Notes: a model not told the origin generated them from the sequence alone. A DNA stretch of 64,000 nt from Thermoanaerobaculia bacterium (GCA_963781065.1 CAWAET010000004.1:139093-203092); one strand, 5' to 3'; numbered from the stretch's first letter, positions 6,943-42,325 are shown. Translations and numbers: made by a program.

Positions 6943-9900
6943 ATGGCAGAGACGGGCGGCGGGCGGACTCACAACGAGGGGGCCGGCGGCTATCGCTGGC
7001 AGTGGCGCGACGCGGTGATCGCCGCCCTGGCCCTGGGCCTGGCGGGGAGCCTGTGGTGGGCGTTCGGCGGCCGGGTCGAGCCGGCGCGGGACGAGGCGGC
7101 GGGCGCCGAGCAGGTCGGTCTCTTCGAGGTAGTGATCGACCGCGAGGGCCGGCAGTGGCTCGAACTGGTGTTCGACCGGCCGGTGCTCGCGGAGGGCGGC
7201 GAGGTGGGGGTCGGCGACGTCCTCGGTCAGCCGCCGGCGACCGTCGATCCGCCGCTCGGCGGCTCCTGGCGCTGGCGCGAGCGCAACGTGCTGCGCTTCG
7301 AGCCCAGTGGCGGCTTCGCGCCCGCCACCGCCTACGCCGTCGACCTGATCCCCGAGCGCTTCCTCGCCGCCGGGCAGAGCTTCGCCGGCGACACCGAGGT
7401 GGCGGTGAGGATCGACCAGTTCCTGGTCGAGGGGGTGGAGGTCTGGGAGGAGCCCGAGAGCGAAGGCGGCGCCGTGGTCCTGCGCGGCAACATCCGCTTC
7501 AACTACAACGTCGAGCCCGAGACGCTCGCCGGGCTCATCCGGCTCGAGGATCCGCGCACCGAGCAAGACCCGGAGATTCAGCTCGAGGCCGGTTGGCGCA
7601 ACCGTTCGATCCCCTTCCGCAGCACCCCGGTCGCCAAGGAGAAGCAGCCGCGCCAGGTCGTCCTGACGATCGACGCGGCGCTGACCCCGGCCGAGGGCAA
7701 CGTGCCGCTGGGCGAGACCTACGCGCAGCCGGTGCCGATCGGCTCGATCGAGGTGCTGGAGGTGCGCCAGCTGACCGCCACGCCGGGCCTCGGCACTTCG
7801 ACCCTGCGGCTGGTGCTTTCCTCCACCGTGGCCGCCGATCTCGCCGCCCCCTACCTGCACGTCGAGCCCGAGACCGCCTACCGGCTCTCCACGCTGCGCA
7901 ACTCGCTGGTCCTGACCGGCGCCTTCGAGCCCGGCGCCACCTACCGCGTGCGGCTCGACAAGGGGCTGCCGGCCGGCGACGGCGCCACCTTGCGCCAGGC
8001 CTACGACGCCCGGGTCCGGCTCGACAACCTGGCGCCGTCGGTGGCCTTCCAGAGCCAGGGGCTGTTCCTCTCCCGCGGCGGCCTGCGCAACCTGGCTCTC
8101 GAGACGGTCAACGTCGACCGGCTGAGCCTGGCGGTCGACCGGGTCTACCGCAACAACCTGTTCCTGCTCTTCCAGGGCCGCGGCGACTTCGACCAGGAGG
8201 AGGTCTACCCCGGCGGCGTCTGGCGGCCGCTGGGCGACCGGCTGTACGAGGAGACCGTCGCCGTCGCCGGCCAGCGCAACCGCAAGGCGACCACCGTGCT
8301 GTCGCTCGACGACTACGTCGACGCCGACGAGCCCGGCCTCTACCGCGTCCTGGCCGGCCGGCCCGATCACTGGCAGGCGCCGCAGCGCTGGGTGCTGGTC
8401 ACCGACCTCGGGGCGGTGGCCAAGCGGGGCGACGGCGAGTTTCTGGTCTGGGCGCTGTCGCACCGCACCCTGGCGCCGGTGGCCGGCGCCGAGGTGGAGC
8501 TGATCTCGGACCAGAACCAGGTGATCGCCCGCGGCACCACCGATGGCGAGGGGCTGTGGCGCTTTCGCGATGCCACCGCCCTGGCCGAGCACGAGCCGTT
8601 TCTGCTCACCCTGGCGCGGGGCGACGACTTCAGCTTCCTCTACCTCGACCGGATGCGGGTCGACACCACCGGCCTCGACGTGGGCGGCGCGGCGCGACCG
8701 GTCGACGGCTACAGCGCCTTCCTCTACGGCGAGCGCGATCTCTACCGCCCCGGCGAGACGGTGCGCGGCGTCGCCCTGGTGCGCGACGCCGGGCTGCGGC
8801 CGGCGCCGGCGATGCCGGCCCTGCTGCGCCACCGCGACTCGCGCGGCCGCGAGATCCAGGCCCGCCGCATCGAGCTCGACGGACGGGGGCTGGCCGAGTT
8901 CGAGTGGCCGATGCCGGCCTACGCCATGACCGGCCGGCAGAGCCTCGAGCTCGAGATCGCCGAAGTGGTGGTGGGCCGCTACGCCTTCCAGCTCGAGGAG
9001 TTCGTGCCCGACCGGATCAAGGTCGAGATCCGGCCCGGCGACGCCACGGCGGGACCCGGCCGGCCGCTGAGTTGGGACGTCGCCGGCGCCTACCTGTTCG
9101 GACCGCCGGCCGCCGGCCTGGCGGCGGAGACCCGGGTGCGGCTGGTCGACGACACCTTCTCCTCCGAGCGGTACCCGCGGTTCTCGTTCCGCAACGACGA
9201 GCACTCCTTCAGCGACCGCGAGGTCTTCAGCCAAGACGCCCGGCTCGACGGCGAGGGCCGGGCCGCTTTCGAGGTCGAGCTGCCGGCCGAGCGGCGGTTG
9301 CCCTCCTCGCTGGCGGCGGTGATCACCGCCCGCGTCCAGGAGCAGGGCGGGCGCGGCGTCACCGCCAGGACGCGCGTCGGCCTCGACCCCTATCCCTATC
9401 ATGTCGGCCTGCGCCGGCCGGCGAGCGGTTACCCCGACATCGGCCAGGAGGTCTCGTTCGACTGGGTGGCGGTAGCGCCCGACGGCTCCGACCACCCCAG
9501 CGGCGCGCTCGAGGCCGAGCTGATCCTCGACCGCTGGCAGACGGTGCTGCGTCGCACGCCGGCGGGCGGCTTTCGCTACCAGTCGACCCGCGAATCGGTG
9601 ACCGTGGAGCGGCGCAAGATCGGGGCCGGCGATGCCACCGGCACCGTCGCTTTCAGGCCGCAGCAGTATGGCAGCCACCGCGTGGTGCTCACCGACCCGG
9701 CCACCGGCGCCTCGGCGTCGGTCCAGTTCTACACCGGCGGCTGGGGCTACTCGCCCTGGGCCGTGGAGAACCCAGATCGGCTCGAGCTGGAGCTGGATCG
9801 CGACGAGTACCGGGCGGGCGAGACCGCCACCGTCCAGGTGCGGGCGCCCTTCCCGGGACGGCTGCTGCTGACCGTCGAGCAGGAGGAGATACTGGAGGTC

Positions 9901-20919: not shown

Positions 20920-21734
20920 TGAGCCAGCTGAACTTCGACAAGGTCGCGGTCCTCGGGGCCGGCAAGATGGGCAACACCCTGATCCACGCCATGCGCCAGG
21001 GCGGGCTGGCGGCGGAGCGGATCGTCGCCACCGGCCGCCGCGAAGCGGAGCTCGGCCGCCTCGCCGAGCGCGAGGGCGTCGCGGTCGGCCGCGACAATCG
21101 CGCGGCGGTCGCCGGCGCCGACCTGGTGCTGCTGTGCGTCAAGCCGCAGGTGGTTGCCGAGGTGCTGGATCAGATCGGCGACGCCATGGGCGACGGTCAG
21201 GTGCTGGTCTCGATCGCCGCCGGCGCCACCACCGCCCTGCTCGAAAAGCACCTGCCGGACGGGGTGCCGGTGATCCGGGCGATGCCCAACACCCCGAGCC
21301 TGATCGGCGCCGGCATGACGGCGCTGTGCGGCGGCCGTTGGGCGTCCGAAGAGCAGATCGAGACGGCGCGGCGGGTCTTCGCCGGCATGGGCCGCACCAT
21401 GGTGCTCGACGAGAAGCTCTTCGACGCCGTCACCGGCCTGTCGGCCAGCGGCCCGGCCTTTGTCTACATCATCATCGAGGCGCTGGCCGAGGGCGGAGTC
21501 AAGGCCGGTCTGCCGCGCAAGGTGGCCACCGAGCTGGCGGCGGCGGCGTGTTTTGGCGCCGCCAAGATGGTGCTCGACACCGAGGCCCACCCGGCGCTGC
21601 TCAAGGACGACGTCACCACGCCGGCCGGCTGCACCATGGACGGCATCCTGATGCTGGAAGAGGGCGGCCTGCGGGTGACCCTGATCAAGGCGGTGATCGA
21701 GGCCACCCGGCGCGCCGGCGAGCTGGTGGACTAG
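20916..21734 (+). CDS. proC: pyrroline-5-carboxylate reductase
   Basis: From ATG 20916: VAVLGAGKMGNTL (Rossmann), VKPQ, AMPNTPSLIG, SGPAFVYIIIEALAEGGVKAGLPR, DVTTPAGCT. The track ORF 19827..21734 is over-extended. Confidence 0.92.
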   Translation: MMSQLNFDKVAVLGAGKMGNTLIHAMRQGGLAAERIVATGRREAELGRLAEREGVAVGRDNRAAVAGADLVLLCVKPQVVAEVLDQIGDAMGDGQVLVSIAAGATTALLEKHLPDGVPVIRAMPNTPSLIGAGMTALCGGRWASEEQIETARRVFAGMGRTMVLDEKLFDAVTGLSASGPAFVYIIIEALAEGGVKAGLPRKVATELAAAACFGAAKMVLDTEAHPALLKDDVTTPAGCTMDGILMLEEGGLRVTLIKAVIEATRRAGELVD

Positions 21735-21752
21735 CTTGGGCGGTGCGGCCGT

Positions 21753-22562
21753 TCAGACCACGATGTAGTCGCCCGGCGCGTAGTCGTGCTTGGCGTTCTC
21801 GATCAGGTCGGCCTCGGCGTCACGCCGCTTGAGCAGGCCGTCGAGGCCCTTGCCGACCCACAGCCGCTTCATCTGGCGCACCAGGTCGGCCATCTTCTCG
21901 AGGTCGCCGGCCTTGACGGCCGGGGCCAGGTCCGCCATCTCCTTGCGGCTCGCGCCGCTCTTGCTGGTCCCCCGGTTGTAGACCAGTGACAGCATCCCGC
22001 CCTGGGCATCCGCGGGCAGCTTGTCGACGCCGGGGAACGCTTTCAGGGTCATTTTCGCATAGCGGCTGAGCGTCTTCTCGTTGAACACGGACCGGGCTTC
22101 GTTGAAGGGCACTTTCAGACCCACGTCCGCCAGCCGCTTGGCGGCATCCCGCGCCGGGCTGCCCTTCAGACTGGCGACGCCTTTAAGATCCTGGACATAG
22201 GCATCGGCGATCCGGCCCCCCCAGTCCGCCTCGATCTGACTGGCGGAGTTGTAGCCGACGTCATACCCGATCCCGACCGTCACGCCGCTCTTTCCTCCCG
22301 GCCAGGTCGGCTTGGCGAGCCGCCGCGTGTAGTAGCTCTCGCTGATCACCTCGAACGCGACGATCATCTCGACCGCCTTCGTCGAGGGGGTCATCGAGTG
22401 CAGCGCGTCCTTGGTTCGCTTTGGCGCCCCCGCGCTGGACTCCTTGACCATGGAGAAGCCGAGCCGCAGCTCCGCGGCGGTCAGGGTCGCCGGCCCGATG
22501 ATCCCGTCGGCGGTGACACCCAACGCCTTCTGAATTCGCGCAATTCGTTCTTTCTGGTTCAT
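21753..22562 (-). CDS. peptidoglycan-binding-domain + T4-lysozyme-fold (GH24/pesticin-like) muramidase, no signal peptide
   Basis: 269 aa with an AAGGAGG SD. PG_binding_1-like IARIQKALGVTADGIIGPATL. Lysozyme-like AFEVISESYY...GVTVGIGYDVGY...LSLVYNRG...GLLKRRDAEADLI. Markedly lower GC than its neighbours. Confidence 0.75.
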   Translation of the reverse strand: MNQKERIARIQKALGVTADGIIGPATLTAAELRLGFSMVKESSAGAPKRTKDALHSMTPSTKAVEMIVAFEVISESYYTRRLAKPTWPGGKSGVTVGIGYDVGYNSASQIEADWGGRIADAYVQDLKGVASLKGSPARDAAKRLADVGLKVPFNEARSVFNEKTLSRYAKMTLKAFPGVDKLPADAQGGMLSLVYNRGTSKSGASRKEMADLAPAVKAGDLEKMADLVRQMKRLWVGKGLDGLLKRRDAEADLIENAKHDYAPGDYIVV

Positions 22563-22624
22563 GCCGTCCTCCTTGGGGTAGGTGGTGCCAGTCTCTTGCG
22601 AGATCTGCGGCCACCACCGAGCGA

Positions 22625-23641
22625 CTACTCGCCGTTCAGCGGTCCCGCGCGGAAATAGGTGCCGTCGAAATAGGCCCGGGCACCGTGGTAGTAGCCGGTG
22701 TTCTCCGCCTTCACTTCCATTCTCTCGCCGTCGAAGAGGAACTCGATGCGGGCGGCCTCGCCGTCGACGGCGGCCTCCGCATCGGTATCGACAAAGACCG
22801 CCAGGCGCTGGTCCGGATCGGCAAACGGCGCGAATCCCCGGATCTCGCCCAGGTGATGGCTCGGGCCGCGGGCGACGCTGATGTCGAACTGCAGGCCGGC
22901 GGCCCCCGCCGGTCCGCCGGCGAGGCGCAACACCATCCGTCCGCCGGCCTCATCCACCCAGACGCCGTCGACTCGCCCCTCCGGGTTGCCCCGGCCATAG
23001 GTCTCCAGAAACCTCGTCCGGGCTTCAGTCAATCCGGCGAGAGACTCCCAGTACCGGGCGCTGGTGTCCGGATCGCCGTCCGCCTCCTCGTCGAGCGCGG
23101 CCTGAAACTCGGCAATCGAGTCCCGGTATTCGATCCAGTCCCGCTGGCGCTGGCGAAGATCCGCCCTTCCCCCCTCGGGCAGGAGCTCCATCGCGCTTCG
23201 GTAGGCGGCATTCAACGCAGCGTCCGCCTCACCGTGGCGTTCCCGGGCAAGTTGCAGTCGCGCCGCCCGATCGAGCCGCCGATAGGTCCCGCTGGGATCC
23301 GGCGCCACCGGGTCGGCCCCCTTCCCGGCGACGATCACGATCGCCTCGCTCGCTTCGCCCGCAGCGATCCGCAGAAACAACTCGCCGACGACGGGGGCCT
23401 CCTCGCTGTCCTCCCGCTGGGCCGTCAGCGGGCCGCGATGGACCCCGTCCGCGAGCCGGGTGTCGGCATGGAAGATCCCGGCCTCGGTCCTCAACTCACA
23501 CGTCAGGTCCGATCCGTCCCGGGGCCAGACAGTGAGGCGCTCCCGATTCGGACCGAGGAACTCGGCATCGGTTGCGTGGCCGATGCCGGCCGTCGCCAGC
23601 AGCAAGAAAAGGACTAGAGCGTTCAGTAATTTGATGATCAA
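22625..23641 (-). CDS. periplasmic DUF1311 (LprI lysozyme-inhibitor-like) domain protein
   Basis: 338 aa from TTG 23641 (GAGGG 6 nt upstream). Signal peptide LNALVLFLLLATAGIGHA. The central helical segment ADAALNAAYRSAMELLPEGGRADLRQRQRDWIEYRDS is the DUF1311 signature as I remember it. Lies upstream of, and on the same strand as, the muramidase. Confidence 0.7.
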   Translation of the reverse strand: MIIKLLNALVLFLLLATAGIGHATDAEFLGPNRERLTVWPRDGSDLTCELRTEAGIFHADTRLADGVHRGPLTAQREDSEEAPVVGELFLRIAAGEASEAIVIVAGKGADPVAPDPSGTYRRLDRAARLQLARERHGEADAALNAAYRSAMELLPEGGRADLRQRQRDWIEYRDSIAEFQAALDEEADGDPDTSARYWESLAGLTEARTRFLETYGRGNPEGRVDGVWVDEAGGRMVLRLAGGPAGAAGLQFDISVARGPSHHLGEIRGFAPFADPDQRLAVFVDTDAEAAVDGEAARIEFLFDGERMEVKAENTGYYHGARAYFDGTYFRAGPLNGE

Positions 23642-23686
23642 TCATACCCTCGGGCAAGTCGGAACGTCCAGAGCCGCCAGGGTGCC

Positions 23687-24907
23687 ATGCTGACGACGAG
23701 CGACGAAGATCAGCCGGCGGCGGGCGTAGTAGGCTACCCGCTATCGATCGCTTCGGATACTAGAAACCTCTTGGAACAAGCTCCAGCAGGCCAGTTGGCG
23801 CCGCGAGAAGCGCGACATTTCCGGCGGCCCGGCCCGGGCCATGCGGGCATCTCGACGGGCGAGTTGCGCTTTGTTCTCGTTCTTTGGCTCGCCTCACGGG
23901 CGTTCGTCCTCGCCTGTCTCTGGCTCTGGTCGGAGGATCCGCTGGCCGCCGTCAGGAACTGGGATGCGGGCTGGTTCCTCGAGCTGGCCCGGACGGGGTA
24001 CGTGCAGCCGTATCAGGCGGCGTTCTTTCCCGGTTTTCCCTCGGTCGTGGCCGCGACCGAAACCCTCACGGGCAACCTGACGACCGCGGCTCTCGCAGCC
24101 AATGCGATCCTCTCGCTCACCGTCGCGGCACTGCTCTATGCGGTCGCTCGGCTTCACCTCGACGTACGGGCCTCGCGCATCGCGCTGGCGGTCGTTCTGT
24201 TTCACCCGTTGTCCTTCTTCCTGTCGATTCCCTACTCGGAAGCGCTCTTCCTGGTCGCGATTCTCGGCATGTTCCTTGCCGCGGAGAGGAGCCGGCTCCT
24301 CGTGGCGGCTGTGTTCGCGGCCGCGGCTACCCTGACCCGGAACACCGGCATCCTGCTGGTCTTGCCCCTCGCCTGCTTCGCCTGGATGCAACTGCGCTCG
24401 CAGCGGCCCGGCGGCACTCCGACCCGGGTCGCCAAGGGCCTCCTCGTCGCGGCCGTCCCACTTCTCGCCCTGGCCGGCTACATGGCCTTCACCTGGTTGC
24501 GGTTCGGAGATCCGCTGCTCTTCTTCCGCTCCCAGAGCCACTGGCAGGACCATATTGCTCTTGGACCGCCGTTCGCCGCCCTCCTGCGCGACCTCGGCCG
24601 CTGGCGCGCCTGGGTCGACCACCATCTTCTCTTCTCGCTGGCCGGCATCTATCTCTCCTGGAGGGTCTTGCGCCGGTGGCCTACCCCGTATGGCCTGCTC
24701 GTCTTGCCGGCCGCGGGTCTCTCCTTCTGCCTGACGAAGCTCGCCATCACTCCCCGGCTGCATCTGGTTCTCTTTCCGCTTTGGCTCGAAGCGGGAAGCC
24801 TGCTCGCCGGCAAGCCGCGCTGGCTGCGGCTGCTGGCCCTGGTGGCGGCCCTCGCCTGGGGCGCGGGCCTGATATTCCGGTTTGCCGCCGGCCAGTGGGT
24901 CGACTAG
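23687..24907 (+). CDS. polytopic membrane glycosyltransferase, PIG-V / GT-C-like mannosyltransferase family
   Basis: About 10 predicted TM helices. The motif NWDAGWFLELARTGY....AFFPGFP resembles WD..WY..IA..GY...aFFPlyP of PIG-V-like proteins. The start is uncertain; an internal TTG near 23863 is possible. Confidence 0.65.
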   Translation: MLTTSDEDQPAAGVVGYPLSIASDTRNLLEQAPAGQLAPREARHFRRPGPGHAGISTGELRFVLVLWLASRAFVLACLWLWSEDPLAAVRNWDAGWFLELARTGYVQPYQAAFFPGFPSVVAATETLTGNLTTAALAANAILSLTVAALLYAVARLHLDVRASRIALAVVLFHPLSFFLSIPYSEALFLVAILGMFLAAERSRLLVAAVFAAAATLTRNTGILLVLPLACFAWMQLRSQRPGGTPTRVAKGLLVAAVPLLALAGYMAFTWLRFGDPLLFFRSQSHWQDHIALGPPFAALLRDLGRWRAWVDHHLLFSLAGIYLSWRVLRRWPTPYGLLVLPAAGLSFCLTKLAITPRLHLVLFPLWLEAGSLLAGKPRWLRLLALVAALAWGAGLIFRFAAGQWVD

Positions 24908-24962
24908 GTGCGGCCGGCCGCCTGTCTCGTGGCGCGGTCCGTGCCTGGGATATCGTCCTCGA

Positions 24963-27752
24963 ATGGCCGACCGGGATGTCTCTCAGACCCTGCTCGACCT
25001 GGTGCGTCAGGTCACCGAGGAGCTGCACCCGGGCCGCGAGCTGCGTCGGCTGGCGCTCGACAGCTCGCTCGACAAGGATCTGGGCCTCGACAGCCTGGGC
25101 CGGGCGGAGCTGCTCTCGCGGCTGGAGAAGGCGTTCGAGGTGGCCCTGCCGGAGAGCCTGGTGGCCTCGGCCGAGACGCCGCGCGACCTGTTGCGGGCGG
25201 TGTCGAGCGCCGGCAAGGCGCCGGGCGTGCCGGCGGCGGAGCTCGAGCCGATGGCGGCGACGCTGAGCGCGGACGAGGCGGTGCCGCACGGCGCCCACAC
25301 CCTGGTCGAGGTGCTCGAGTGGCACGTCGAGCGCCACCCCGACCGCCGCCACGTCGCTTACCTGCCCAGCGACGGGGTGGTCGAGGAGCTCACCTACGGC
25401 CAGCTCTTCGAGCGCGCCAGCCGCATCGCCGCCGGGTTGGAGGCGGCGGGCCTCGAACCGGGCCAGAAGGCCGGGCTGATGCTGCCCAGCGGGCTGGACT
25501 ACTTCGCCACCTTCTTCGGCGTGCTCATCGCCGGCGCCGTGCCGGTGCCGCTCTACCCGCCGGTACGGCCGAGCCAGCTCGAGGACCATCTGCGGCGGCA
25601 GGCCGGAATCCTCAACACCGCCCAGGCCCGCGTGCTGGTGGCGATGCCCGAGGTGCTGCAGCTGGCGCGGCTGGTCAAGGCACAGATCCCCACCCTCTCC
25701 GGCGTGCTCACGGTCGCGGAACTCGGCGCCACCACCACGCCGCCACGGCGGCCGGTCCTCAAGCCTGACGACGTCGCCTTCCTCCAGTTCACCTCGGGCA
25801 GCACCTCGGATCCCAAGGGGGTGATCCTCACCCACGCCAACCTGCTGGCCAACCTGCGCGCCATCGACGCTTCGATCGAGCTCGGGCCCCACGACACGGT
25901 GGTGAGCTGGCTGCCGCTCTACCACGACATGGGCCTGATCGGCGCCTGGATGGGGTCGCTCTACTTCGCCATGCAGCTCGTCCTGATGTCGCCGCTGGCC
26001 TTCCTCACCCGGCCGGCGCGCTGGCTCAAGGCGGTGCACAAGTACCGCGGCACGCTGTCGGCGGCGCCCAACTTCGCCTACGAGCTGTGCCTCAAGAAGA
26101 TCGACGACAGCGAGATCGAGGGCATCGATCTCTCCTCCTGGCGGGCGTCGCTCAACGGCGCCGAGCCGGTGAGCCCCGAGACCATCCGCCGCTTCAGCGA
26201 GCGCTTCGCGCCCTACGGCTTCAAGCCCGGCGCCATGCTGCCGGTCTACGGCCTGGCCGAGAACTCCCTCGCCGTGGCCTTCCCACCGTGGGGCCGCGGC
26301 CCCCGGATCGACGCGGTCAAGCGTCTCGAGCTGAGCGGCGCCGGTGAAGCGTTGCCGGCCGGCGACGACGACGAGGACGCGCTGCGCTTCGTCGGCTGCG
26401 GCTACCCCCTGCCCGGCCACGAGATCCGCATCGTCGACGCCACCGGCAACGAGCTGGCGGAGCGGCGCGAGGGGCGCATCCAGTTCCGCGGCCCCTCGGC
26501 GACCAGCGGCTACTTCCGCAACCCCGCGGCCACCGCCGCCTTGTTCGACGGCGACTGGCTGGACTCGGGCGACCGGGGCTACATCGCCGAGGGCGAGATC
26601 TACATCACCGGCCGGGCCAAGGACATGATCATCCGCGCCGGGCGCAACATCTACCCGCAGGAGCTCGAGGAGGCGGTGGGCAACCTCGAGGGCGTGCGCA
26701 AGGGCTGCGTCGCGGTCTTCGGCAGCACCGATGCGGCGACCGGGACCGAGAAGCTGATCGTCCTGGCCGAGATCCGCGAGAGCGACGAGGAGGCGCGCCA
26801 GCGGCTGCGCGACGAGATCCAGAGCGTCGCCGTCGACCTCGCCGGCACCCCCGCCGACGACGTAGTGCTGGTCGCGCCGCAGACGGTGCCCAAGACCTCG
26901 AGCGGCAAGATCCGCCGCGCCGCCGGGCGCGAGCTCTACGAGGGCCGCCGCCTGGGCAGCCGCGGGCCGGTCTGGTGGCAGGTGGCGCGGCTCGCCCTGG
27001 CCGGGGCCAGGCCGCAGCTCAAGCGCTCGGCCCAGGCCGCCGGCGAGGTGCTGTACGCGGGCCGCTTCTGGCTCACCGTGGGGCTCGCGGTGCTGCCGGT
27101 GGCGGCGGGCGTGACGCTGCTGCCCAAGCTCGCCCGCCGCCGCCGGGTGGCGCGCGGCGCCGCCCGCCAGCTGGCCAGGTTGACCTCGATGCCGCTGCGC
27201 ATCGACGGCCTCGACCACCTGCGCGACGCCGGGCCGCTGGTCATCGCCGCCAACCACGCCAGCTATCTCGACGCCTTCGCCTTGACCGCGGCGCTGCCCA
27301 CCGCGGGCGCCTTCCTGGCCAAACGCGAGCTGAGCGACAGCTTTCTCGCCCGCCTGCTGCTGGAACGGCTGGGCGCGTTGTTCGTCGAGCGGTTCGACGC
27401 CGAGAAGAGCGTCGAAGACACCCAGCGAGCGCTGGCGGCGATCCGCGACGGCGAGTCGCTGCTGTTCTTCCCCGAGGGCACCTTCGACCGCGCTCCGGGC
27501 CTGAGGCCGTTCCGCATGGGCGCCTTCTACGTCGCCGCCCAGGCCGGCGCGCCGGTGGTGCCGGTGGCGATCCGCGGCACCCGGTCGATGCTGCGCGGCG
27601 ACGACTGGTTCCCGCGGCGCGGCGCGATCACCATCACCATCCGCCCGCCGATCGCCCCGGAGGGCAACGACCTGGCGGCGGCGGTGCGGCTGCGCGACAA
27701 GGTGCGGGCCGAGATCCTGGCGCACTGCGGCGAGCCGGATCTGGGCGGGTAG
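24963..27752 (+). CDS. tri-domain ACP - fatty acyl-AMP ligase (FAAL) - TM - lysophospholipid acyltransferase (AGPAT/PlsC-like) fusion
   Basis: From ATG 24963: carrier motif LGLDSLGRAEL. FAAL motifs FLQFTSGSTSDPKGV, APNFAYELC, GDRGY, SSGKIRR. Two hydrophobic helices. Acyltransferase motifs NHASYLD (HX4D) and FFPEGT. Confidence 0.85.
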   Translation: MADRDVSQTLLDLVRQVTEELHPGRELRRLALDSSLDKDLGLDSLGRAELLSRLEKAFEVALPESLVASAETPRDLLRAVSSAGKAPGVPAAELEPMAATLSADEAVPHGAHTLVEVLEWHVERHPDRRHVAYLPSDGVVEELTYGQLFERASRIAAGLEAAGLEPGQKAGLMLPSGLDYFATFFGVLIAGAVPVPLYPPVRPSQLEDHLRRQAGILNTAQARVLVAMPEVLQLARLVKAQIPTLSGVLTVAELGATTTPPRRPVLKPDDVAFLQFTSGSTSDPKGVILTHANLLANLRAIDASIELGPHDTVVSWLPLYHDMGLIGAWMGSLYFAMQLVLMSPLAFLTRPARWLKAVHKYRGTLSAAPNFAYELCLKKIDDSEIEGIDLSSWRASLNGAEPVSPETIRRFSERFAPYGFKPGAMLPVYGLAENSLAVAFPPWGRGPRIDAVKRLELSGAGEALPAGDDDEDALRFVGCGYPLPGHEIRIVDATGNELAERREGRIQFRGPSATSGYFRNPAATAALFDGDWLDSGDRGYIAEGEIYITGRAKDMIIRAGRNIYPQELEEAVGNLEGVRKGCVAVFGSTDAATGTEKLIVLAEIRESDEEARQRLRDEIQSVAVDLAGTPADDVVLVAPQTVPKTSSGKIRRAAGRELYEGRRLGSRGPVWWQVARLALAGARPQLKRSAQAAGEVLYAGRFWLTVGLAVLPVAAGVTLLPKLARRRRVARGAARQLARLTSMPLRIDGLDHLRDAGPLVIAANHASYLDAFALTAALPTAGAFLAKRELSDSFLARLLLERLGALFVERFDAEKSVEDTQRALAAIRDGESLLFFPEGTFDRAPGLRPFRMGAFYVAAQAGAPVVPVAIRGTRSMLRGDDWFPRRGAITITIRPPIAPEGNDLAAAVRLRDKVRAEILAHCGEPDLGG

Positions 27753-38512: not shown

Positions 38513-39247
38513 ATGGCGAGGCTGGTGCTGCTCGGAACCGGGACCTGCCAGCTCGAGGACGGCCGCGCCGCCTCCTCGGCGCTGGTCGAGCTGGAGGGCC
38601 TGCGCCTCGTCTTCGACTGCGGCCGGGGCGTCGCCGCGCGGCTGGCCGCGCTGGGCTATCGCCAGGACCAGCTCGGCCACATCGTCATCTCCCACTTCCA
38701 CGCCGACCACGTCTCCGACCTGGTGCCGCTGCTCCAAGCCGGCTCCTGGTCGTGGACCGACCCGCGCCATCGCGACCTGCACATCTGGGGGCCGCCCGGC
38801 CTGCGGCGGCTGGTCGAGGGCTGGCTCGAGCTCTACGGCCCGGAAACGCTGGTCAACCCGGACCGCTACCGGGTCGAGTTGCACGAGCTGCCCTCGGGAG
38901 CCTTCACCATCGACGGCCGGAACTTCGAGTTCGTCAGCCTGCCGCCGGCCGGCAACCACGGCCTCGGCTTCGCGGTCGGCGGCCGGCGGTACGCCCTGAC
39001 CGGGGACTCCGGCTTCCACCCGGAAGAGGTGGCGTTTCTCAGCGGGCGGGAGCTGGCGGTTTTCGACTCGGGCCACCTCGAAGAGGAGGAGATCGTCGAG
39101 CTGGCCGCCCGCAGCCAGGCGCGGCGGCTGGTCTGCTCGCACCTCTACCGCCCGCTCGACGCCGCGGTCCTGGGAGCCCGGGCCGCCAAGGCCGGCTTCA
39201 CGGGCGAGCTGATCGTCGGCGAGGACGGCATGGCCTTCGACCTGTAG
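38513..39247 (+). CDS. MBL-fold metallo-hydrolase (RNase Z/ElaC-like small form)
   Basis: 244 aa with HIVISHFHADHVSDL and later GD..FH and a C-terminal H. Confidence 0.8.
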   Translation: MARLVLLGTGTCQLEDGRAASSALVELEGLRLVFDCGRGVAARLAALGYRQDQLGHIVISHFHADHVSDLVPLLQAGSWSWTDPRHRDLHIWGPPGLRRLVEGWLELYGPETLVNPDRYRVELHELPSGAFTIDGRNFEFVSLPPAGNHGLGFAVGGRRYALTGDSGFHPEEVAFLSGRELAVFDSGHLEEEEIVELAARSQARRLVCSHLYRPLDAAVLGARAAKAGFTGELIVGEDGMAFDL

Positions 39248-39334
39248 CCCGGCCCCGGCCGTGGCACCAGCACGTTCTCCCGCGGCCTCTGGCGGCCCCG
39301 CGCCGGCAGCTCGGTCGCGTGCTACGCTGATTCG

Positions 39335-39682
39335 GTGACGACCGAGCGGCGCCTCTACCGGGTCTCCTTCTTCCAGCAGGGAGAGGTCTACGAGGTCTAC
39401 GCCAATCAGGTGAGCCAGGGCAACCTGTTCGGCTTCGTCGAGCTCGAAGGACTGCTCTTTGGCGAGCGTTCCGAGGTGCTGGTGGACCCCTCGCAGGAGA
39501 AGCTCGCCAGCGAGTTCAAGGACGTCGAACGGGTCTACGTGCCGATGCACGCCGTGCTGCGGATCGACGAGGTCGCCAAGCCGGGGGTGAGCCGGATCAC
39601 CAAGCCCGAGGGCGAGGCGGCCAAGGTGACCAACTTCCCCGGTCCGATCTACACCCCGTCGCCGCGGCCCGAGAAGAGCTGA
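39335..39682 (+). CDS. DUF1820 family protein
   Basis: GTG start. LYRVSFFQQGEVYEVYANQVSQGNLFGFVELEGLLFGE...VDPSQEKLASEFKDVERVYVPMHAVLRIDEV matches my memory of DUF1820. Confidence 0.75.
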   Translation: MTTERRLYRVSFFQQGEVYEVYANQVSQGNLFGFVELEGLLFGERSEVLVDPSQEKLASEFKDVERVYVPMHAVLRIDEVAKPGVSRITKPEGEAAKVTNFPGPIYTPSPRPEKS

Positions 39683-39706
39683 CTCCCAGGACGGAGTAGC
39701 CGTCCG

Positions 39707-40246
39707 ATGCGCATCGAGCTCGCCGACGGCCACCACCTCCGGAGCTATCGCGCCGGCGACAAGGCGGCGCTGGTGGCCCATGCCGACAACAAGAACGTCT
39801 CGCGCAACCTGCGCGACCGGTTTCCCCATCCCTACACGCCGCAGGCGGCCGACGGGTGGCTCAGACACGTCGCCGCCGAACGGCCCGAGACCAGCTTCGC
39901 CATCGCCAGCCCGAAGGAGCTCGTCGGCGGCATCGGCATCGAGCTGGGCGAGGACGTCCACCACCGCTCGGGTGAGATCGGCTTCTGGCTGGGCGAGCCG
40001 TTCTGGGGGCGCGGCATCGTCACCCGGGCGTTACGCGCCTTCACCCCCTGGGCCTTCGAGCGCTACGACCTGCTACGGATCTGGGCCGGCGTGTTCGACA
40101 GCAACCCGGCCTCGGCGCGGGTGCTGGAGAAGGCCGGCTACACCTTGGAGGGCCGCCACCGGGCCGCGGTGATGAAGGACGGGCGGGCGCTCGACGAGCT
40201 GATCTACGCCCGGCTCCGCTTCGAATCGACGCCCCGGGCCCAATAG
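39707..40246 (+). CDS. GNAT family N-acetyltransferase (RimJ/RimL-like)
   Basis: 179 aa with GFWLGEPFWGRGIVTRALRAF (motif A Q/RxxGxG/A) and NPASARVLEKAGYTLEG. Confidence 0.85.
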   Translation: MRIELADGHHLRSYRAGDKAALVAHADNKNVSRNLRDRFPHPYTPQAADGWLRHVAAERPETSFAIASPKELVGGIGIELGEDVHHRSGEIGFWLGEPFWGRGIVTRALRAFTPWAFERYDLLRIWAGVFDSNPASARVLEKAGYTLEGRHRAAVMKDGRALDELIYARLRFESTPRAQ

Positions 40247-40262
40247 CTCTGCAGTGATTCCC

Positions 40263-41306
40263 TCAGTCGCTGTCGGTCGGAATCGCTTCCGAGTCCGCGT
40301 CGCTGTCCGAGTCCGAATCGTCGTCGTCCCGATCGAGGGCGTAGATCTTCCCGGCACCATAGTCGGCGACCCATAGGTCTCCGTCGCGGGCCACCGCGAC
40401 ACTGTTGAAGCTCAATCCGGGGAAGGCCACCGAAGTCGTAGAGAAGCCCGCGGCAAAGTCCTCGACAAGAAAGCCACCGGCGCCGTCGTCGACCAGTCGA
40501 CGGATCATGCCGTCCGCGGCGTCCGAAACGTAGATCGGTCCGCCGTTCTCTCCCTGGGCGACGAAGTCGATGCGGGTGCCGACGCTGGTCGCCAGCACGG
40601 TCTCGGCTCCGCTGTCGATGTCCCACGCCTCGACCTGATTGAAGCAGCAGAGGTTGCCGCCGCCGTCGACGCGGAAGCGAACCGCCGCCAGCAGGATGCG
40701 ATCGTCGGTCAGCTGCAACCCGTCGGCGCGTACGCTGCGGTCCTTGAACTCGCTGATGTTGCCCGCGCGGTCGATGCGCAGGATCGAGCCCGACGTGGCG
40801 GCGGCGAAGATGTCGCCGGTTACCGGGTCGGCGACAACACCGATCAGGTTGCCGGTGATGCCGGGCACGCCACCGGTGGCGTAGAAGTTTCCGAGCACGC
40901 CTTTGCGCGAGATCTCCTGAACGCCGCCGTTGGGAGTTCCGAACTGGGCCGCCAGATACCCGCCCCAGGGATCCTCGCCGACGTTGATCCACTGCAGACC
41001 GTTGACTTGAGCCAGCACCTTGGTCTTGCCGTTCCGCTTGACCCTGGTGAGCACGCGGTTCACCGGGTCGCCGGGGGGAACGTTCTGCGCCTCGGCCACC
41101 ACCACCTTGCTCGAGCCCACCGGCACCATGCCCTCTGGACCGTTCAGCCCGGAGGCGACCTCTTCGATCGAGAAACCGGGAACCAACACTGTCTGCGCCT
41201 GGGCGCCGCCAGCCACCAGGCAGGCCAACATCGCAGCGGCCAGCAGCCCCGACCAGCGGCGAAGCCGCGCCGTGCTCGGATTGAGACGTTCGATCTTCCT
41301 CGACAT
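40263..41306 (-). CDS. secreted beta-propeller (NHL/SMP-30-like) protein with poly-acidic Asp/Ser C-terminal tail
   Basis: ATG 41306 has a GGAGGGGG SD. Signal peptide LLAAAMLACLVAGGAQA. Repeated ..GDI/LWVADYGAGKIY.. blades. The C-terminus is DRDDDDSDSDSDADSEAIPTDSD. Confidence 0.75.
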   Translation of the reverse strand: MSRKIERLNPSTARLRRWSGLLAAAMLACLVAGGAQAQTVLVPGFSIEEVASGLNGPEGMVPVGSSKVVVAEAQNVPPGDPVNRVLTRVKRNGKTKVLAQVNGLQWINVGEDPWGGYLAAQFGTPNGGVQEISRKGVLGNFYATGGVPGITGNLIGVVADPVTGDIFAAATSGSILRIDRAGNISEFKDRSVRADGLQLTDDRILLAAVRFRVDGGGNLCCFNQVEAWDIDSGAETVLATSVGTRIDFVAQGENGGPIYVSDAADGMIRRLVDDGAGGFLVEDFAAGFSTTSVAFPGLSFNSVAVARDGDLWVADYGAGKIYALDRDDDDSDSDSDADSEAIPTDSD

Positions 41307-41427
41307 GGAAACCCCCTCCAATTGAACCCAAAGTCGGTGTGCCAAAGCCCTATCGGGCGAACGTTATCACTAGCTTCTTGGGGGGCGAAAGCTCGCCCCA
41401 CGGGCATCACAGACCCGCGAGCACGCC

Positions 41428-42168
41428 CTACTCCCTGGCGATCGAATCGCGCAGGTTGACCGGTGACCGCGACGCCCGCAGGCGCAGGTTGAGCATCTCG
41501 ACAAAGACCGAGAAGCCCATCGCGAAGTAGATGTAGCCCTTGGGGATGTGGTGGTCGAGCCCGTCGGCCACCAGCGCCATGCCGATCAGCAGCAGGAAGG
41601 ACAGCGCCAGCATCTTGACCGTCGGGTGACGCTCGACGAACTCGCCCAGTGACCTGGCGAAGAACATCATGAAGCCGACCGCGATGACGATCGCGATCAC
41701 CATGATCGGCACCTCCTTGACCATGCCGACGGCCGTGATCACCGAGTCGAGCGAGAAGACGATGTCGAGCAGGGTCACCTGCACCAGGGTGGCGCCGAAG
41801 GCGGCCTTGACCTTGGACGAGGTCGACCCTTCGACGCCCTCGAGCTTGTTGTGGATCTCGTGCGTCGCCTTGGCGAGCAGGAACAGGCCGCCGACGATGA
41901 GAATCAGGTCGCGACCCGAGATCTCGTTGCCGAAGACGGTGAACCAGGGCGAGGTCAGCCGGATGATCCAGGCGAGCGAGATGAGCAGCAGGATGCGCAT
42001 CCCCATCGCCAGGCCGAGCCCGATCAGCCGCGCCGACTGGCGCTGATGCTCGGGCAGCCTGCCGGTGAGGATCGAGATGAAGATGATGTTGTCGACCCCG
42101 AGAACGATCTCGAGGACGGTCAGGGTGACGAGGGCGATCCAGGCTTGTGGGTCGCTGATCCATTCCAT
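41428..42168 (-). CDS. TerC-family integral membrane protein
   Basis: From ATG 42168 (AAGGAG SD): MEWISDPQAWIALVTLTVLEIVLGVDNIIFISIL... and a second FSLDSVITAVG motif. The track ORF 41428..42543 is over-extended. Confidence 0.85.
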   Translation of the reverse strand: MEWISDPQAWIALVTLTVLEIVLGVDNIIFISILTGRLPEHQRQSARLIGLGLAMGMRILLLISLAWIIRLTSPWFTVFGNEISGRDLILIVGGLFLLAKATHEIHNKLEGVEGSTSSKVKAAFGATLVQVTLLDIVFSLDSVITAVGMVKEVPIMVIAIVIAVGFMMFFARSLGEFVERHPTVKMLALSFLLLIGMALVADGLDHHIPKGYIYFAMGFSVFVEMLNLRLRASRSPVNLRDSIARE

Positions 42169-42325
42169 TTTCGCGGTCTCCTTGCTCGAACAACGAACTC
42201 TACCAGCGGCGCCGGGACCTCTCCCCGCGGCGCTATGGCAGGCCCGCCGGCCGTGTACTATCCTGCCCCCTCGCCGGTGGGTGGTCACGGCGTGACTCCG
42301 ACCGGTCTCCCCCCAGGAAAGACGT

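What the first reader, a model, noticed from the sequence alone, without database searches (positions are those of the whole stretch)
21753..24907. Lower-GC three-gene island: signal-less PG-binding muramidase preceded by a periplasmic DUF1311/LprI-like protein, plus a PIG-V-like glycosyltransferase
**Composition.** My hand counts of 100-nt samples give about 58% GC (22041-22140) and about 66% (23101-23200). A sample inside proC (21001-21100) gives about 81%. Codon usage also changes (AAA, TTT, ATT appear). This suggests horizontal acquisition between proC and the ACP-FAAL-AGPAT gene.

**Gene pair.** The downstream gene encodes a PG_binding_1 domain plus a T4-lysozyme-fold muramidase with no signal peptide. 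The upstream, same-strand gene encodes a signal-peptide protein whose central segment is DUF1311. That is the domain of the mycobacterial lysozyme inhibitor LprI, and it recurs among immunity proteins of polymorphic toxin systems.

**Interpretation.** A cytoplasmic cell-wall hydrolase paired with a periplasmic putative inhibitor looks like an effector/immunity pair, or a stand-alone lysis/anti-lysis module. No phage structural genes or holin are nearby, and no secretion-system gene is visible in the window.
Basis: partly seen in the sequence, partly recalled or inferred. Interest (0 to 1): 0.6.

Follow-up and report, generated by a model that had tools for sequence, protein, structure and literature searches.

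The report
Mobile muramidase plus periplasmic LprI-protein cassette
An acidobacterial chromosome carries a horizontally acquired two-gene cassette, a phage-endolysin-type cell-wall-cutting enzyme with no export signal and a secreted LprI/DUF1311 protein that probably neutralises it. This resembles known toxin/antidote pairs, but the genome has no type VI secretion system.

Summary
The genes and most domain calls are real. Gene 21753-22562(-) encodes a signal-less muramidase with a T4-lysozyme/pesticin fold and an invariant E71/T95/D101 triad. Gene 22625-23641(-) encodes a Sec-exported protein: beta-barrel, DUF1311/LprI three-helix domain, beta-barrel. Gene 23687-24907(+) encodes a multi-pass PIG-V-like glycosyltransferase (GT).

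The GC dip is genuine but modest (67.4% against 72.0%). A same-genus genome has proC joined directly to the FAAL gene, so the segment is accessory.

The mobile unit is two genes, not three. A 1.94-kb stretch (21739-23675) covering exactly the LprI and muramidase genes is 88% identical to a cassette in another genus, at a different site. There the proteins are 86-90% identical, against 65% for proC. The GT is unrelated cargo.

The muramidase belongs to a cellular clade derived from phage endolysins (40% identical to the Xylella phage Salvo endolysin). That clade usually occurs as a lone gene. The LprI pairing appeared in four related loci, one with the muramidase truncated and LprI intact.

T6SS is absent. 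An Afp/PVC-type contractile injection system lies 69 kb away.

Best reading (about 0.45): an enzyme plus periplasmic inhibitor module of the immunity type. It is a new variant of a known kind, and inhibition is untested.

The parts
21739..23675 (-). Mobile two-gene cassette: a promoter-like element, the LprI-like gene and the muramidase gene.
   Evidence: One continuous blastn match of 1,971 columns at 87.8% identity to the Acidobacteriota MAG JAOTWP01 (G023; L001 8855-10824), where the flanking genes are different. The match starts 34 bp upstream of the LprI start and ends 14 bp after the muramidase stop.
21753..22562 (-). Signal-less muramidase, 269 aa. It has an N-terminal helix-loop-helix like half of a PG-binding repeat (residues 3-34), a variable linker, and a T4-lysozyme/pesticin-fold catalytic domain (about residues 60-269).
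   Evidence: - Sequence and structure: Pfam; AF2 pLDDT 91.8; Foldseek to pesticin 4aqn E 4e-6, then T4 lysozyme.
- E71, T95 and D101 are invariant in 118 homologues, with the pesticin T-x5-D spacing.
- The catalytic domain is 40% identical to the Xylella phage Salvo endolysin.
- No hydrophobic segment.
- It is the only copy in the genome.
22260..22352 (-). Codons of the putative catalytic triad: E71 (22352-22350), T95 (22280-22278) and D101 (22262-22260).
   Evidence: These columns are invariant in alignment A2. The GVTxGxGxD motif matches pesticin T201/D207, read by eye from the alignment. The residue assignment is inferred.
22568..22574 (-). Shine-Dalgarno sequence AAGGAGG, 5 nt upstream of the muramidase ATG, inside the 62-bp spacer.
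   Evidence: Read directly from the sequence. In G023 the two genes overlap by 4 bp. In L093 the spacer is 74 bp.
22625..23641 (-). Sec-exported LprI/DUF1311-domain protein, 338 aa. It comprises a signal peptide (residues 1-23), beta-barrel 1 (26-122), a three-helix DUF1311 domain (125-217) and a conserved beta-barrel 2 (226-333).
   Evidence: - PF07007 scores 38.8 bits against a gathering threshold of 22.
- AF2 pLDDT is 83.9.
- The DUF1311 part matches 3gi7 with TM 0.77-0.80. The barrels are weakly avidin-like.
- There is a single N-terminal hydrophobic segment.
- It is the only LprI gene in the genome.
- The C-terminal barrel has no Pfam or PDB sequence match and is rare: 192 clusters in 1.84 billion proteins.
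23641..23670 (-). Promoter-like element TGGACG-N18-TATGAT at the cassette's upstream edge.
   Evidence: It is the only sigma-70-like match in 21400-25100; shuffled sequences give a mean of 0.1. It is conserved in G023 as TGGACG...TACAAT. Function is inferred.
23687..24907 (+). PIG-V-like GT-C membrane glycosyltransferase, 406 aa as listed (the true start is probably about 50 codons downstream). It is independent accessory cargo and not part of the cassette.
   Evidence: - PF04188 scores 33.5 against a gathering threshold of 22.4.
- It has at least 7 hydrophobic segments.
- It is absent from G001, L093, L088 and G023.
- The best homologue is 54% identical and covers 86% of the query.
- Homologues lie in unrelated gene contexts.
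21735..24962 (.). Variable accessory-gene slot between proC and the ACP-FAAL-AGPAT gene.
   Evidence: - The slot is empty in same-genus G001.
- L093 holds an Xre-type HTH gene, two unknown genes and the pair.
- L088 holds LprI, a muramidase remnant, and DUF4062 and AAA ATPase genes.
- No tRNA and no flanking repeats were found.

Best explanation
The feature is a self-contained, horizontally mobile two-gene operon.

**The two products.**
- The downstream gene makes a cytoplasmically synthesised muramidase. It descends from a phage endolysin family and has an intact Glu/Thr/Asp active site.
- The upstream gene makes a soluble periplasmic protein built around a DUF1311/LprI domain flanked by two beta-barrels.

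**Proposed mechanism.** The periplasmic protein binds and neutralises the muramidase wherever that enzyme meets peptidoglycan. It would therefore act as an immunity or inhibitor partner protecting the producer and its kin.

**Route out of the cytoplasm.** The enzyme has no Sec or Tat signal, and the genome has no T6SS. It must reach the wall by another route, which is not known. Candidates are release by lysis and delivery by the genome's Afp/PVC-type contractile injection system.

**Shown:** gene structure, folds, catalytic-residue conservation, co-transfer as a unit, purifying selection, and absence of T6SS and prophage context.

**Inferred:** physical inhibition, the export route, and whether the enzyme is used against competitors or for self-lysis.
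For: 1. Same strand, tight spacing (62 bp here, 74 bp in L093, 4-bp overlap in G023), a strong SD and a shared upstream promoter-like element.
2. The DNA shared with G023 is exactly the two genes. The proteins are 90% and 86% identical, while proC is 65% identical. dN is 0.048 and 0.075 for the pair against 0.30 for proC.
3. Among 61 related genomes, both genes occur only in G000 and G023. Each is single-copy in this genome.
4. The pair occurs in four loci: G000, G023, L093 and L088. In L088 the muramidase is cut off just before its catalytic motif while LprI stays intact. This matches the 'effector lost, immunity kept' pattern reported for EHEC Etse4/Etsi4 (PMC12981562).
5. The compartment logic fits. 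The enzyme has no export signal, and the partner has a signal peptide conserved in four loci.
6. LprI evolves faster than the enzyme and the flanks: dN 0.225 against 0.116 (muramidase) and 0.07-0.09 (flanks); dN/dS 0.39-0.45 against 0.20-0.26.
7. There is published precedent. Signal-peptide LprI-domain proteins sit next to lysozyme-like T6SS effectors as predicted immunity genes (PMC9796082; PMC12135965). The DUF1311 protein Etsi4 rescues the periplasmic toxicity of the cell-wall-targeting effector Etse4 (PMC12981562).
Against: - Neither family needs the other.
  - No LprI-like ORF was found by jackhmmer or HMM search in any of the other 79 genome loci carrying the muramidase family. A Pfam census of 140 flanking ORFs found no recurrent partner.
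  - Muramidase homologues at 60-67% identity have no LprI neighbour.
  - LprI-like homologues at 35-42% identity have no peptidoglycan hydrolase neighbour.
- The part of M. tuberculosis LprI said to be sufficient for lysozyme resistance is its MliC domain, which is not detectable here (statement from PMC7933661).
- The Salmonella LprI-domain protein ScwA gave no lysozyme resistance (PMC7933661).
- No export route is demonstrated. A strictly cytoplasmic enzyme would need no immunity.
- No complex model could be computed, because only single-chain prediction was available.
Confidence: 0.45

Rival explanations
1. Self-lysis or release module. The muramidase is a domesticated endolysin used to open the producer's own wall, for example to release contractile injection particles, vesicles or DNA. 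It would depend on an unlinked holin-like membrane lesion. The periplasmic LprI-like protein is a brake on lysis, or protects bystander kin.
For: - The catalytic domain is 40% identical to a bona fide phage endolysin that sits in a holin-holin-endolysin-spanin cassette.
- There are 382 relatives in viral contigs. Among the 80 kept, many share the same two-domain architecture.
- G000 and G023 both carry an orthologous eCIS cluster with sheath, gp19 tube, Pvc16_N, gp25 and Baseplate_J genes. From general knowledge, such particles are released by lysis in several systems.
Against: - No holin or spanin is adjacent here or in 79 other loci.
- The cassette lies 69 kb from the eCIS cluster.
- G032 carries Pvc16_N and may have a similar eCIS (inferred only from a similar bit score), yet it lacks the cassette.
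- Thirty-six of 51 genomes with the muramidase family lack Pvc16_N.
Confidence: 0.15
2. No direct functional link. Two independent accessory genes happened to lie side by side and were transferred together as a short fragment. The LprI-like protein has its own periplasmic role.
For: - Both families are overwhelmingly found alone.
- LprI persists intact without the muramidase in L088.
- The proC-FAAL slot collects unrelated cargo: GT, HTH, DUF4062 and AAA genes.
Against: - The transferred DNA is trimmed to exactly these two genes plus one promoter-like element.
- The gene order is kept in four loci across two genomic sites, with translational overlap in one.
- The only LprI gene and the only member of this muramidase family in a 4.9-Mb genome are adjacent.
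- The domain combination has published functional precedent.
Confidence: 0.2
3. A non-inhibitory partner. The LprI-like protein is a periplasmic factor that stabilises, positions or activates a wall hydrolase, as ScwA raises MltD levels in Salmonella, rather than blocking it.
For: - ScwA, a periplasmic LprI-domain protein, positively controls MltD levels and gives no lysozyme resistance (PMC7933661).
- The strongly conserved C-terminal barrel, with its NTGYYHGARAYFDG motif, looks like a ligand- or protein-binding module of unknown specificity.
Against: - The muramidase has no route to the periplasm that would let a periplasmic chaperone act on it routinely.
- Retention of LprI after loss of the enzyme in L088 fits protection better than activation.
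Confidence: 0.12
4. Decaying prophage remnant. The muramidase is the last surviving gene of a degraded prophage lysis cassette, and LprI is a leftover moron.
For: - The family is of phage origin.
- The DUF1311 region has a weak PHROG match, phrog_4895 at E 3e-4.
Against: - dN/dS of 0.20-0.26 with invariant catalytic residues shows purifying selection.
- The 80 genome copies plus this one and L093 form one clade apart from the viral sequences, with SH-like support 91. They are not scattered remnants.
- No phage genes lie in the flanks here, and a census of 140 flanking ORFs around the other genome copies turned up no recurrent phage family.
- No LprI-like gene lies near the enzyme in 80 viral loci.
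Confidence: 0.03

Closest known systems
T6SS lysozyme-like effector / LprI (DUF1311)-domain immunity pairs (Pantoea hcp-island cassettes, WHIX effectors, EHEC Etse4-Etsi4)
   Same: - A wall-targeting enzyme made without a signal peptide sits beside a signal-peptide DUF1311 protein.
- The cassettes are mobile.
- Orphan immunity genes survive loss of the effector (PMC9796082, PMC12135965, PMC12981562).
   Different: - This genome has no TssC or VgrG.
- No hcp, vgrG or PAAR neighbour and no T6SS marker domain were found.
- The partner gene is upstream rather than downstream.
- The enzyme belongs to a different, endolysin-derived lone-gene clade. Only 16 of 50 genomes that carry it have a T6SS.
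- The partner carries two extra beta-barrels.
Pesticin / Pim of Yersinia pestis (pPCP1)
   Same: - Pesticin is the closest solved fold for the catalytic domain, with the same Glu/Thr/Asp motif spacing.
- The toxin lacks a signal peptide, and immunity acts in the periplasm (general knowledge).
   Different: - There is no receptor-binding or translocation domain and no TonB box. Only a 35-residue hairpin and a linker precede the catalytic domain.
- Whether Pim is related to LprI was not examined here.
- The Pfam Pesticin score is below threshold (24.3 against 25.8).
Phage endolysins of the Xylella phage Salvo type (N-terminal wall-binding module plus T4L-like muramidase, holin-dependent)
   Same: - The catalytic domain is 40% identical.
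- Many viral relatives share the same two-domain architecture.
- There is no signal peptide.
   Different: - There is no holin, antiholin or spanin.
- The context is chromosomal and not a prophage.
- The gene belongs to a separate cellular clade.
Mycobacterium tuberculosis LprI (Rv1541c) lysozyme inhibitor
   Same: An exported protein with a DUF1311 domain followed by a beta-barrel, implicated in lysozyme inhibition.
   Different: - LprI is a lipoprotein whose barrel is MliC.
- The protein here has no lipobox Cys and no MliC match.
- It has an additional N-terminal barrel.
Salmonella ScwA (periplasmic LprI-domain regulator of MltD)
   Same: A soluble periplasmic LprI-domain protein that was horizontally acquired and is linked to peptidoglycan hydrolase biology (PMC7933661).
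   Different: - ScwA has four conserved cysteines and a different N-terminal part.
- It is not adjacent to a hydrolase gene.
- It raises hydrolase levels rather than inhibiting.

Membership tests
GH24 / T4-lysozyme-like muramidase (Pfam Phage_lysozyme PF00959; Pesticin PF16754) | Profile score at or above the curated threshold | tested here: inconclusive
   PF00959 scores 22.5 against 22.3, a bare pass. PF16754 scores 24.3 against 25.8, below threshold.
GH24 / T4-lysozyme-like muramidase | T4-lysozyme fold | tested here: met
   AF2 pLDDT 91.8. Foldseek finds pesticin at E 4e-6 and T4 lysozyme with probability 1.00.
GH24 / T4-lysozyme-like muramidase | Catalytic Glu plus the Thr/Asp of the GVTxGxGxD motif | tested here: met
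   E71, T95 and D101 are invariant in 118 sequences. The spacing equals that of pesticin T201/D207. The positional equivalence of the Glu is inferred.
GH24 / T4-lysozyme-like muramidase | Muramidase activity | not testable with these tools
   This needs an enzyme assay.
PG_binding_1 (PF01471) | Complete three-helix domain scoring above threshold | tested here: not met
   The score is 18.2 against 23. Only model positions 32-56 of 57 match. The model shows two helices, residues 3-14 and 24-34.
LprI / DUF1311 (PF07007) | Profile score above threshold and the helical fold | tested here: met
   The score is 38.8 against 22. The match to 3gi7 has TM 0.77-0.80 and rmsd 2.4-2.5.
M. tuberculosis LprI-type inhibitor (lipoprotein, DUF1311 + MliC) | MliC domain (PF09864) | tested here: not met
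   There is no MliC hit for the whole protein or for 16 C-terminal domains, even at E up to 10. There is no PDB sequence hit.
M. tuberculosis LprI-type inhibitor | Lipobox cysteine | tested here: not met
   The signal peptide ends ...ATAGIGHA/TD with no Cys.
T6SS effector-immunity pair | A T6SS in the genome | tested here: not met
   TssC (PF05943) is absent from G000, which is 86% complete, and from G023 (searched as G061). Phage_GPD/VgrG (PF05954) is absent from both.
T6SS effector-immunity pair | Linkage to hcp/vgrG/PAAR, or an N-terminal T6SS marker domain | tested here: not met
   The flanks are proC and FAAL. No such Pfam domain is present in the enzyme.
T6SS effector-immunity pair | Signal-peptide partner encoded adjacently | tested here: met
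Phage lysis cassette | Adjacent holin and spanin genes, and a prophage context | tested here: not met
   None is present here. A same-genus genome joins the same flanks directly.
eCIS (Afp/PVC-type) cargo | An eCIS present in the genome | tested here: met
   Sheath, gp19 tube, Pvc16_N, CIS_tube, gp25 and Baseplate_J genes lie at G000:C4, about 78.5-93 kb. An orthologous cluster is present in G023.
eCIS (Afp/PVC-type) cargo | Cargo gene encoded next to the eCIS operon | tested here: not met
   The cassette is about 69 kb away.
eCIS (Afp/PVC-type) cargo | N-terminal packaging signal, or presence in particles | not testable with these tools
   This needs particle proteomics.
Genomic island (horizontally acquired segment) | Empty site in a close relative and an atypically close copy elsewhere | tested here: met
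   The site is empty in G001. Cassette proteins are 86-90% identical to G023 against 65% for proC.
PIG-V-like GT-C glycosyltransferase (PF04188), for the third gene | Profile score above threshold and multi-pass membrane topology | tested here: met
   The score is 33.5 against 22.4. There are at least 7 hydrophobic segments.

The most novel reading that the evidence does not exclude
The lone chromosomal clade of endolysin-derived, signal-less muramidases has over 1,800 detected members across many phyla and no conserved neighbour. On this reading it is not a dormant relic. It is an enzyme that reaches peptidoglycan by a route independent of Sec, T6SS and holins.

In this acidobacterial lineage the enzyme has recruited a dedicated periplasmic LprI-domain immunity protein. 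It would be delivered by the genome's Afp/PVC-type contractile injection system. That would make it an antibacterial effector-immunity pair of an extracellular contractile injection system.
Probability: 0.12. Interest if true: 0.75.

Novelty: new variant of a known kind. Interest (0 to 1): 0.42.

Why it matters
**If the inhibitor reading is right.**
- The LprI-domain answer to wall-cutting enzymes would not be confined to T6SS arsenals. It could be bolted onto a domesticated phage endolysin in a phylum (Acidobacteriota) where interbacterial weaponry is barely studied.
- It would also imply that a widespread family of signal-less 'lone' muramidases does reach the periplasm. That raises the question of how.

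**Practical value.**
- The pair is a compact, testable enzyme/inhibitor couple.
- The 121-residue C-terminal barrel is an undescribed domain with a sharply conserved motif.

**If the link is accidental.** The locus is an ordinary accessory-gene slot.

Tried and rejected
- **T6SS effector.** Rejected for this genome. It is not a property of the family either, since only 16 of 50 carriers have TssC.
- **Prophage lysis cassette.** Rejected.
- **Three-gene island as one unit.** Rejected. The GT is absent from all other copies, and its homologues sit in unrelated contexts.
- **MliC-like identity of the C-terminal barrel.** There is no sequence support. Foldseek gave only weak avidin-like matches, all with E above 0.001. 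BFVD gave one weak uncharacterised phage hit.
- **Anti-phage defence system.** PADLOC gave no hits.
- **Conserved neighbour of the muramidase family.**
  - All-against-all clustering and a Pfam census of 140 flanking ORFs found none.
  - A subset has an unannotated upstream lipoprotein.
- **Mobile-element ends.** No tRNA, flanking repeats or integrase were seen in the segment.
- **dS as a clock.** It was abandoned because GC3 above 0.9 saturates it. dN was used instead.
- **Complex prediction.** It was not possible.
- **eCIS enrichment.** Fifteen of 51 carriers have Pvc16_N, but 16 of 61 relatives do too, most of them without the muramidase. No enrichment can be claimed.

Full report
**1. The observation**

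- a 269-aa protein at 21753-22562(-);
- a 338-aa protein at 22625-23641(-);
- a 406-aa protein at 23687-24907(+).

- Whole-gene GC is 66.0%, 68.6% and 67.2%. proC is 71.8-72.5% and the FAAL gene is 73.1%.
- GC3 is 0.82-0.89 in the three genes and 0.92-0.98 in the flanks.
- The span sits in the lowest 1.3% of equal-sized windows. A deeper dip exists at about 39-42 kb.

**2. Domain content**

*LprI-like protein.*
- Pfam supports LprI/DUF1311 for residues 129-212 of the upstream protein (38.8 bits, threshold 22).
- Its only hydrophobic segment is N-terminal, and that signal peptide is conserved in four loci.
- The model (pLDDT 83.9) shows barrel, three-helix DUF1311, barrel. The helical part matches the DUF1311 crystal structure 3gi7 with TM 0.77-0.80.
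- The C-terminal barrel is sharply conserved, with the motif NTGYYHGARAYFDG.
- That barrel matches no Pfam family, not MliC, and no PDB sequence. It is rare: 192 clusters among 1.84 billion representatives.

*Muramidase.*
- It just passes Phage_lysozyme, just misses Pesticin, and misses PG_binding_1. Only a single helix-loop-helix of PG_binding_1 is matched.
- The AlphaFold model is confident (pLDDT 91.8). Its best structural matches are pesticin (E 4e-6) and then T4 lysozyme.
- E71, T95 and D101 are invariant in 118 homologues. They sit in the pesticin-type GVTxGxGxD context.
- The protein has no hydrophobic segment.

*Glycosyltransferase.* The third protein is a PIG-V-like GT-C enzyme with at least 7 hydrophobic segments.

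**3. An accessory slot and a two-gene mobile unit**

- The window is G000:C4:139093-203092, in a 4.9-Mb acidobacterial assembly that is 86% complete.
- Same-genus genome G001 has GATase-proC, about 240 bp, then FAAL-GH, with none of the three genes.
- Metagenome contig L093 is a closer relative (proC 87%, FAAL 90%). It has proC, three other genes, the muramidase (82.5%) and LprI (67%), then FAAL. It has no GT.
- Contig L088 has FAAL, an intact LprI (70%) and only residues 19-89 of the muramidase. The remnant is cut just before the catalytic motif and is followed by DUF4062 and AAA ATPase genes.
- In the different-genus MAG JAOTWP01 (G023), the pair lies between an aminotransferase gene and a sigma-factor gene, with a 4-bp gene overlap.
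- The DNA shared with G023 is window 23675-21739 only (1.94 kb, 87.8% identity). It runs from 34 bp upstream of LprI to 14 bp past the muramidase stop.
- That shared stretch includes a promoter-like TGGACG-N18-TATGAT element, the only such match in the region.

Divergence between G000 and G023:

| Gene | Protein identity | dN |
|---|---|---|
| Muramidase | 90% | 0.048 |
| LprI-like | 86% | 0.075 |
| proC | 65% | 0.30 |

This shows recent lateral exchange of the pair.
- Among 61 related genomes, both genes are present only in G000 and G023.
- Each gene is single-copy in G000.
- The GT has no homologue above 54% identity, and its homologues lie in unrelated contexts. It is separate cargo.

**4. 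What the muramidase is**

- The family is large: at least 1,806 hits, about 260 aa each, across many phyla.
- Its catalytic domain is 40% identical to the Xylella phage Salvo endolysin, which sits in a holin-holin-endolysin-spanin cassette.
- IMG/VR holds 382 relatives. Among the 80 kept, many share the same two-domain architecture and sit beside phage genes.
- In a FastTree phylogeny, the 80 copies from bacterial genomes plus this one and L093 form one clade apart from the viral sequences (SH-like support 91). Only one 'viral' contig falls inside that clade.
- That clade is a lone gene. A census of 140 flanking ORFs gave 140 different Pfam families. None recurred more than three times, and no LprI-like ORF was detected near any other copy.
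- Only 16 of 50 carrier genomes have TssC.

It is therefore a domesticated, laterally spreading branch of an endolysin family whose cellular role is unknown.

**5. How general the pairing is**

It is not general.
- Muramidase homologues at 60-67% identity lack an LprI neighbour.
- LprI-like homologues at 35-42% identity lack any wall hydrolase neighbour.
- The partnership is a lineage-specific invention, seen in four related loci.

**6. Mechanism**

The most economical reading is an enzyme plus periplasmic inhibitor (immunity-type) module. The supporting points are:
- co-transcription signals;
- transfer as a precisely trimmed unit;
- compartment logic (cytoplasmic enzyme, exported partner);
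- faster evolution of the partner, with dN/dS 0.39-0.45 against 0.20-0.26;
- survival of the partner after truncation of the enzyme in L088;
- published precedent.

On the precedent:
- LprI-domain signal-peptide proteins sit beside lysozyme-like T6SS effectors (PMC9796082, PMC12135965).
- The DUF1311 protein Etsi4 rescues the periplasmic toxicity of the wall-targeting effector Etse4, and it outlived its effector in EHEC (PMC12981562).

Against this reading:
- both families usually stand alone;
- the MliC domain, credited with lysozyme inhibition in mycobacterial LprI, is missing;
- Salmonella ScwA, another periplasmic LprI-domain protein, regulates MltD rather than inhibiting lysozyme (PMC7933661);
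- no export route is known.

**7. Delivery**

- T6SS markers are absent from G000 and G023.
- Both genomes carry an orthologous Afp/PVC-type contractile injection cluster, with sheath, gp19 tube, Pvc16_N, CIS_tube, gp25 and Baseplate_J genes. In G000 it lies about 69 kb from the cassette.
- Its proteins are 55-78% identical between the two genomes. That is divergence like housekeeping genes, not recent transfer.
- This makes CIS delivery, or a role in lysis-mediated particle release, conceivable.
- The link is weak, however. The cassette is not adjacent to the cluster.
- Pvc16_N is found in 16 of 61 relatives, most of which lack the muramidase, and in only 15 of 51 carriers.

**8. Verdict**

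- The 'three-gene island' should be re-drawn as a two-gene mobile cassette plus unrelated GT cargo in an accessory slot.
- The effector/immunity-like interpretation is the best available at about 0.45, but it is unproven.
- The locus is a new variant of a known kind: LprI-type immunity attached to a T6SS-independent, endolysin-derived muramidase.
- Earlier AI notes from this scan describe similar muramidase/DUF1311 pairs in other genomes, and one accidental adjacency. I used them only as leads.

Noticed in passing
G000:C4 about 78,500-93,000 (outside the window, about 46-60 kb upstream of its start; loci L198, L199): An Afp/PVC-type extracellular contractile injection system cluster: a 635-aa sheath, gp19-like tube, Pvc16_N protein, CIS_tube, Phage_tail_X-like, gp25 and Baseplate_J genes. 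A syntenic orthologue with 55-78% protein identity is present in G023. Same-genus G001 and G002 lack Pvc16_N.
   Followed up: partly
window 23630-23641 (- strand), with L001 about 8893-8900, L093 and L088 aligned: The canonical TTG start of the LprI-like gene exists only in this genome. An invariant ATC codon directly precedes the conserved K/R n-region of the signal peptide in all four loci. L093 has no canonical start near it. An ATC initiation codon is possible.
   Followed up: partly
L093:5263-8357 and L088:2115-4711: The proC-FAAL slot holds different cargo in related genomes. L093 has an Xre-type HTH gene, a 619-aa unknown and a 200-aa phrog_13263-like protein. L088 has a DUF4062 protein and an AAA ATPase. 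This mixed accessory content resembles that of a defence island.
   Followed up: partly
L006:4388-4813, L007:3655-4164, L011:1075-1647, L039:7354-7983, L043:7373-7978, L049:1033-1491: In a gammaproteobacterial/Thiotrichaceae subset of the lone-muramidase family, a lipoprotein of no known family abuts or overlaps the muramidase start (lipobox-like LSAC or LLAC). It may be an alternative partner or inhibitor.
   Followed up: partly
L016:4346-5932, L036:7588-9135, L062:8777-10549: Three muramidase-family loci have a Tle1-like (DUF2235) phospholipase-domain gene directly downstream. Two others have TIR_2 neighbours.
   Followed up: no
window 23687-23850 and 24882-24962: The listed starts of the GT and of the ACP-FAAL-AGPAT gene are probably too far upstream. 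GT homologues cover only the last 86% of the query. FAAL relatives align only from residue 14-32 onward. The apparent GT/FAAL overlap and the 45-bp divergent spacer to LprI are therefore likely artefacts of taking the longest ORF.
   Followed up: no
window about 39,200-42,400: This is the lowest-GC stretch of the window, with 1-kb values of 63.6-66%. It was not examined here.
   Followed up: no
L111 (IMGVR_UViG_3300017527_000200): This is the only 'viral' contig whose muramidase falls inside the cellular clade (48% identity; tree). It is either a phage that recaptured the cellular gene or a misclassified contig.
   Followed up: no
L001:5624-6355: In G023, a separate 243-aa PG_binding_1 protein lies about 2.6 kb upstream of the cassette. 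BrnT/BrnA and a TIR-like gene are nearby.
   Followed up: no
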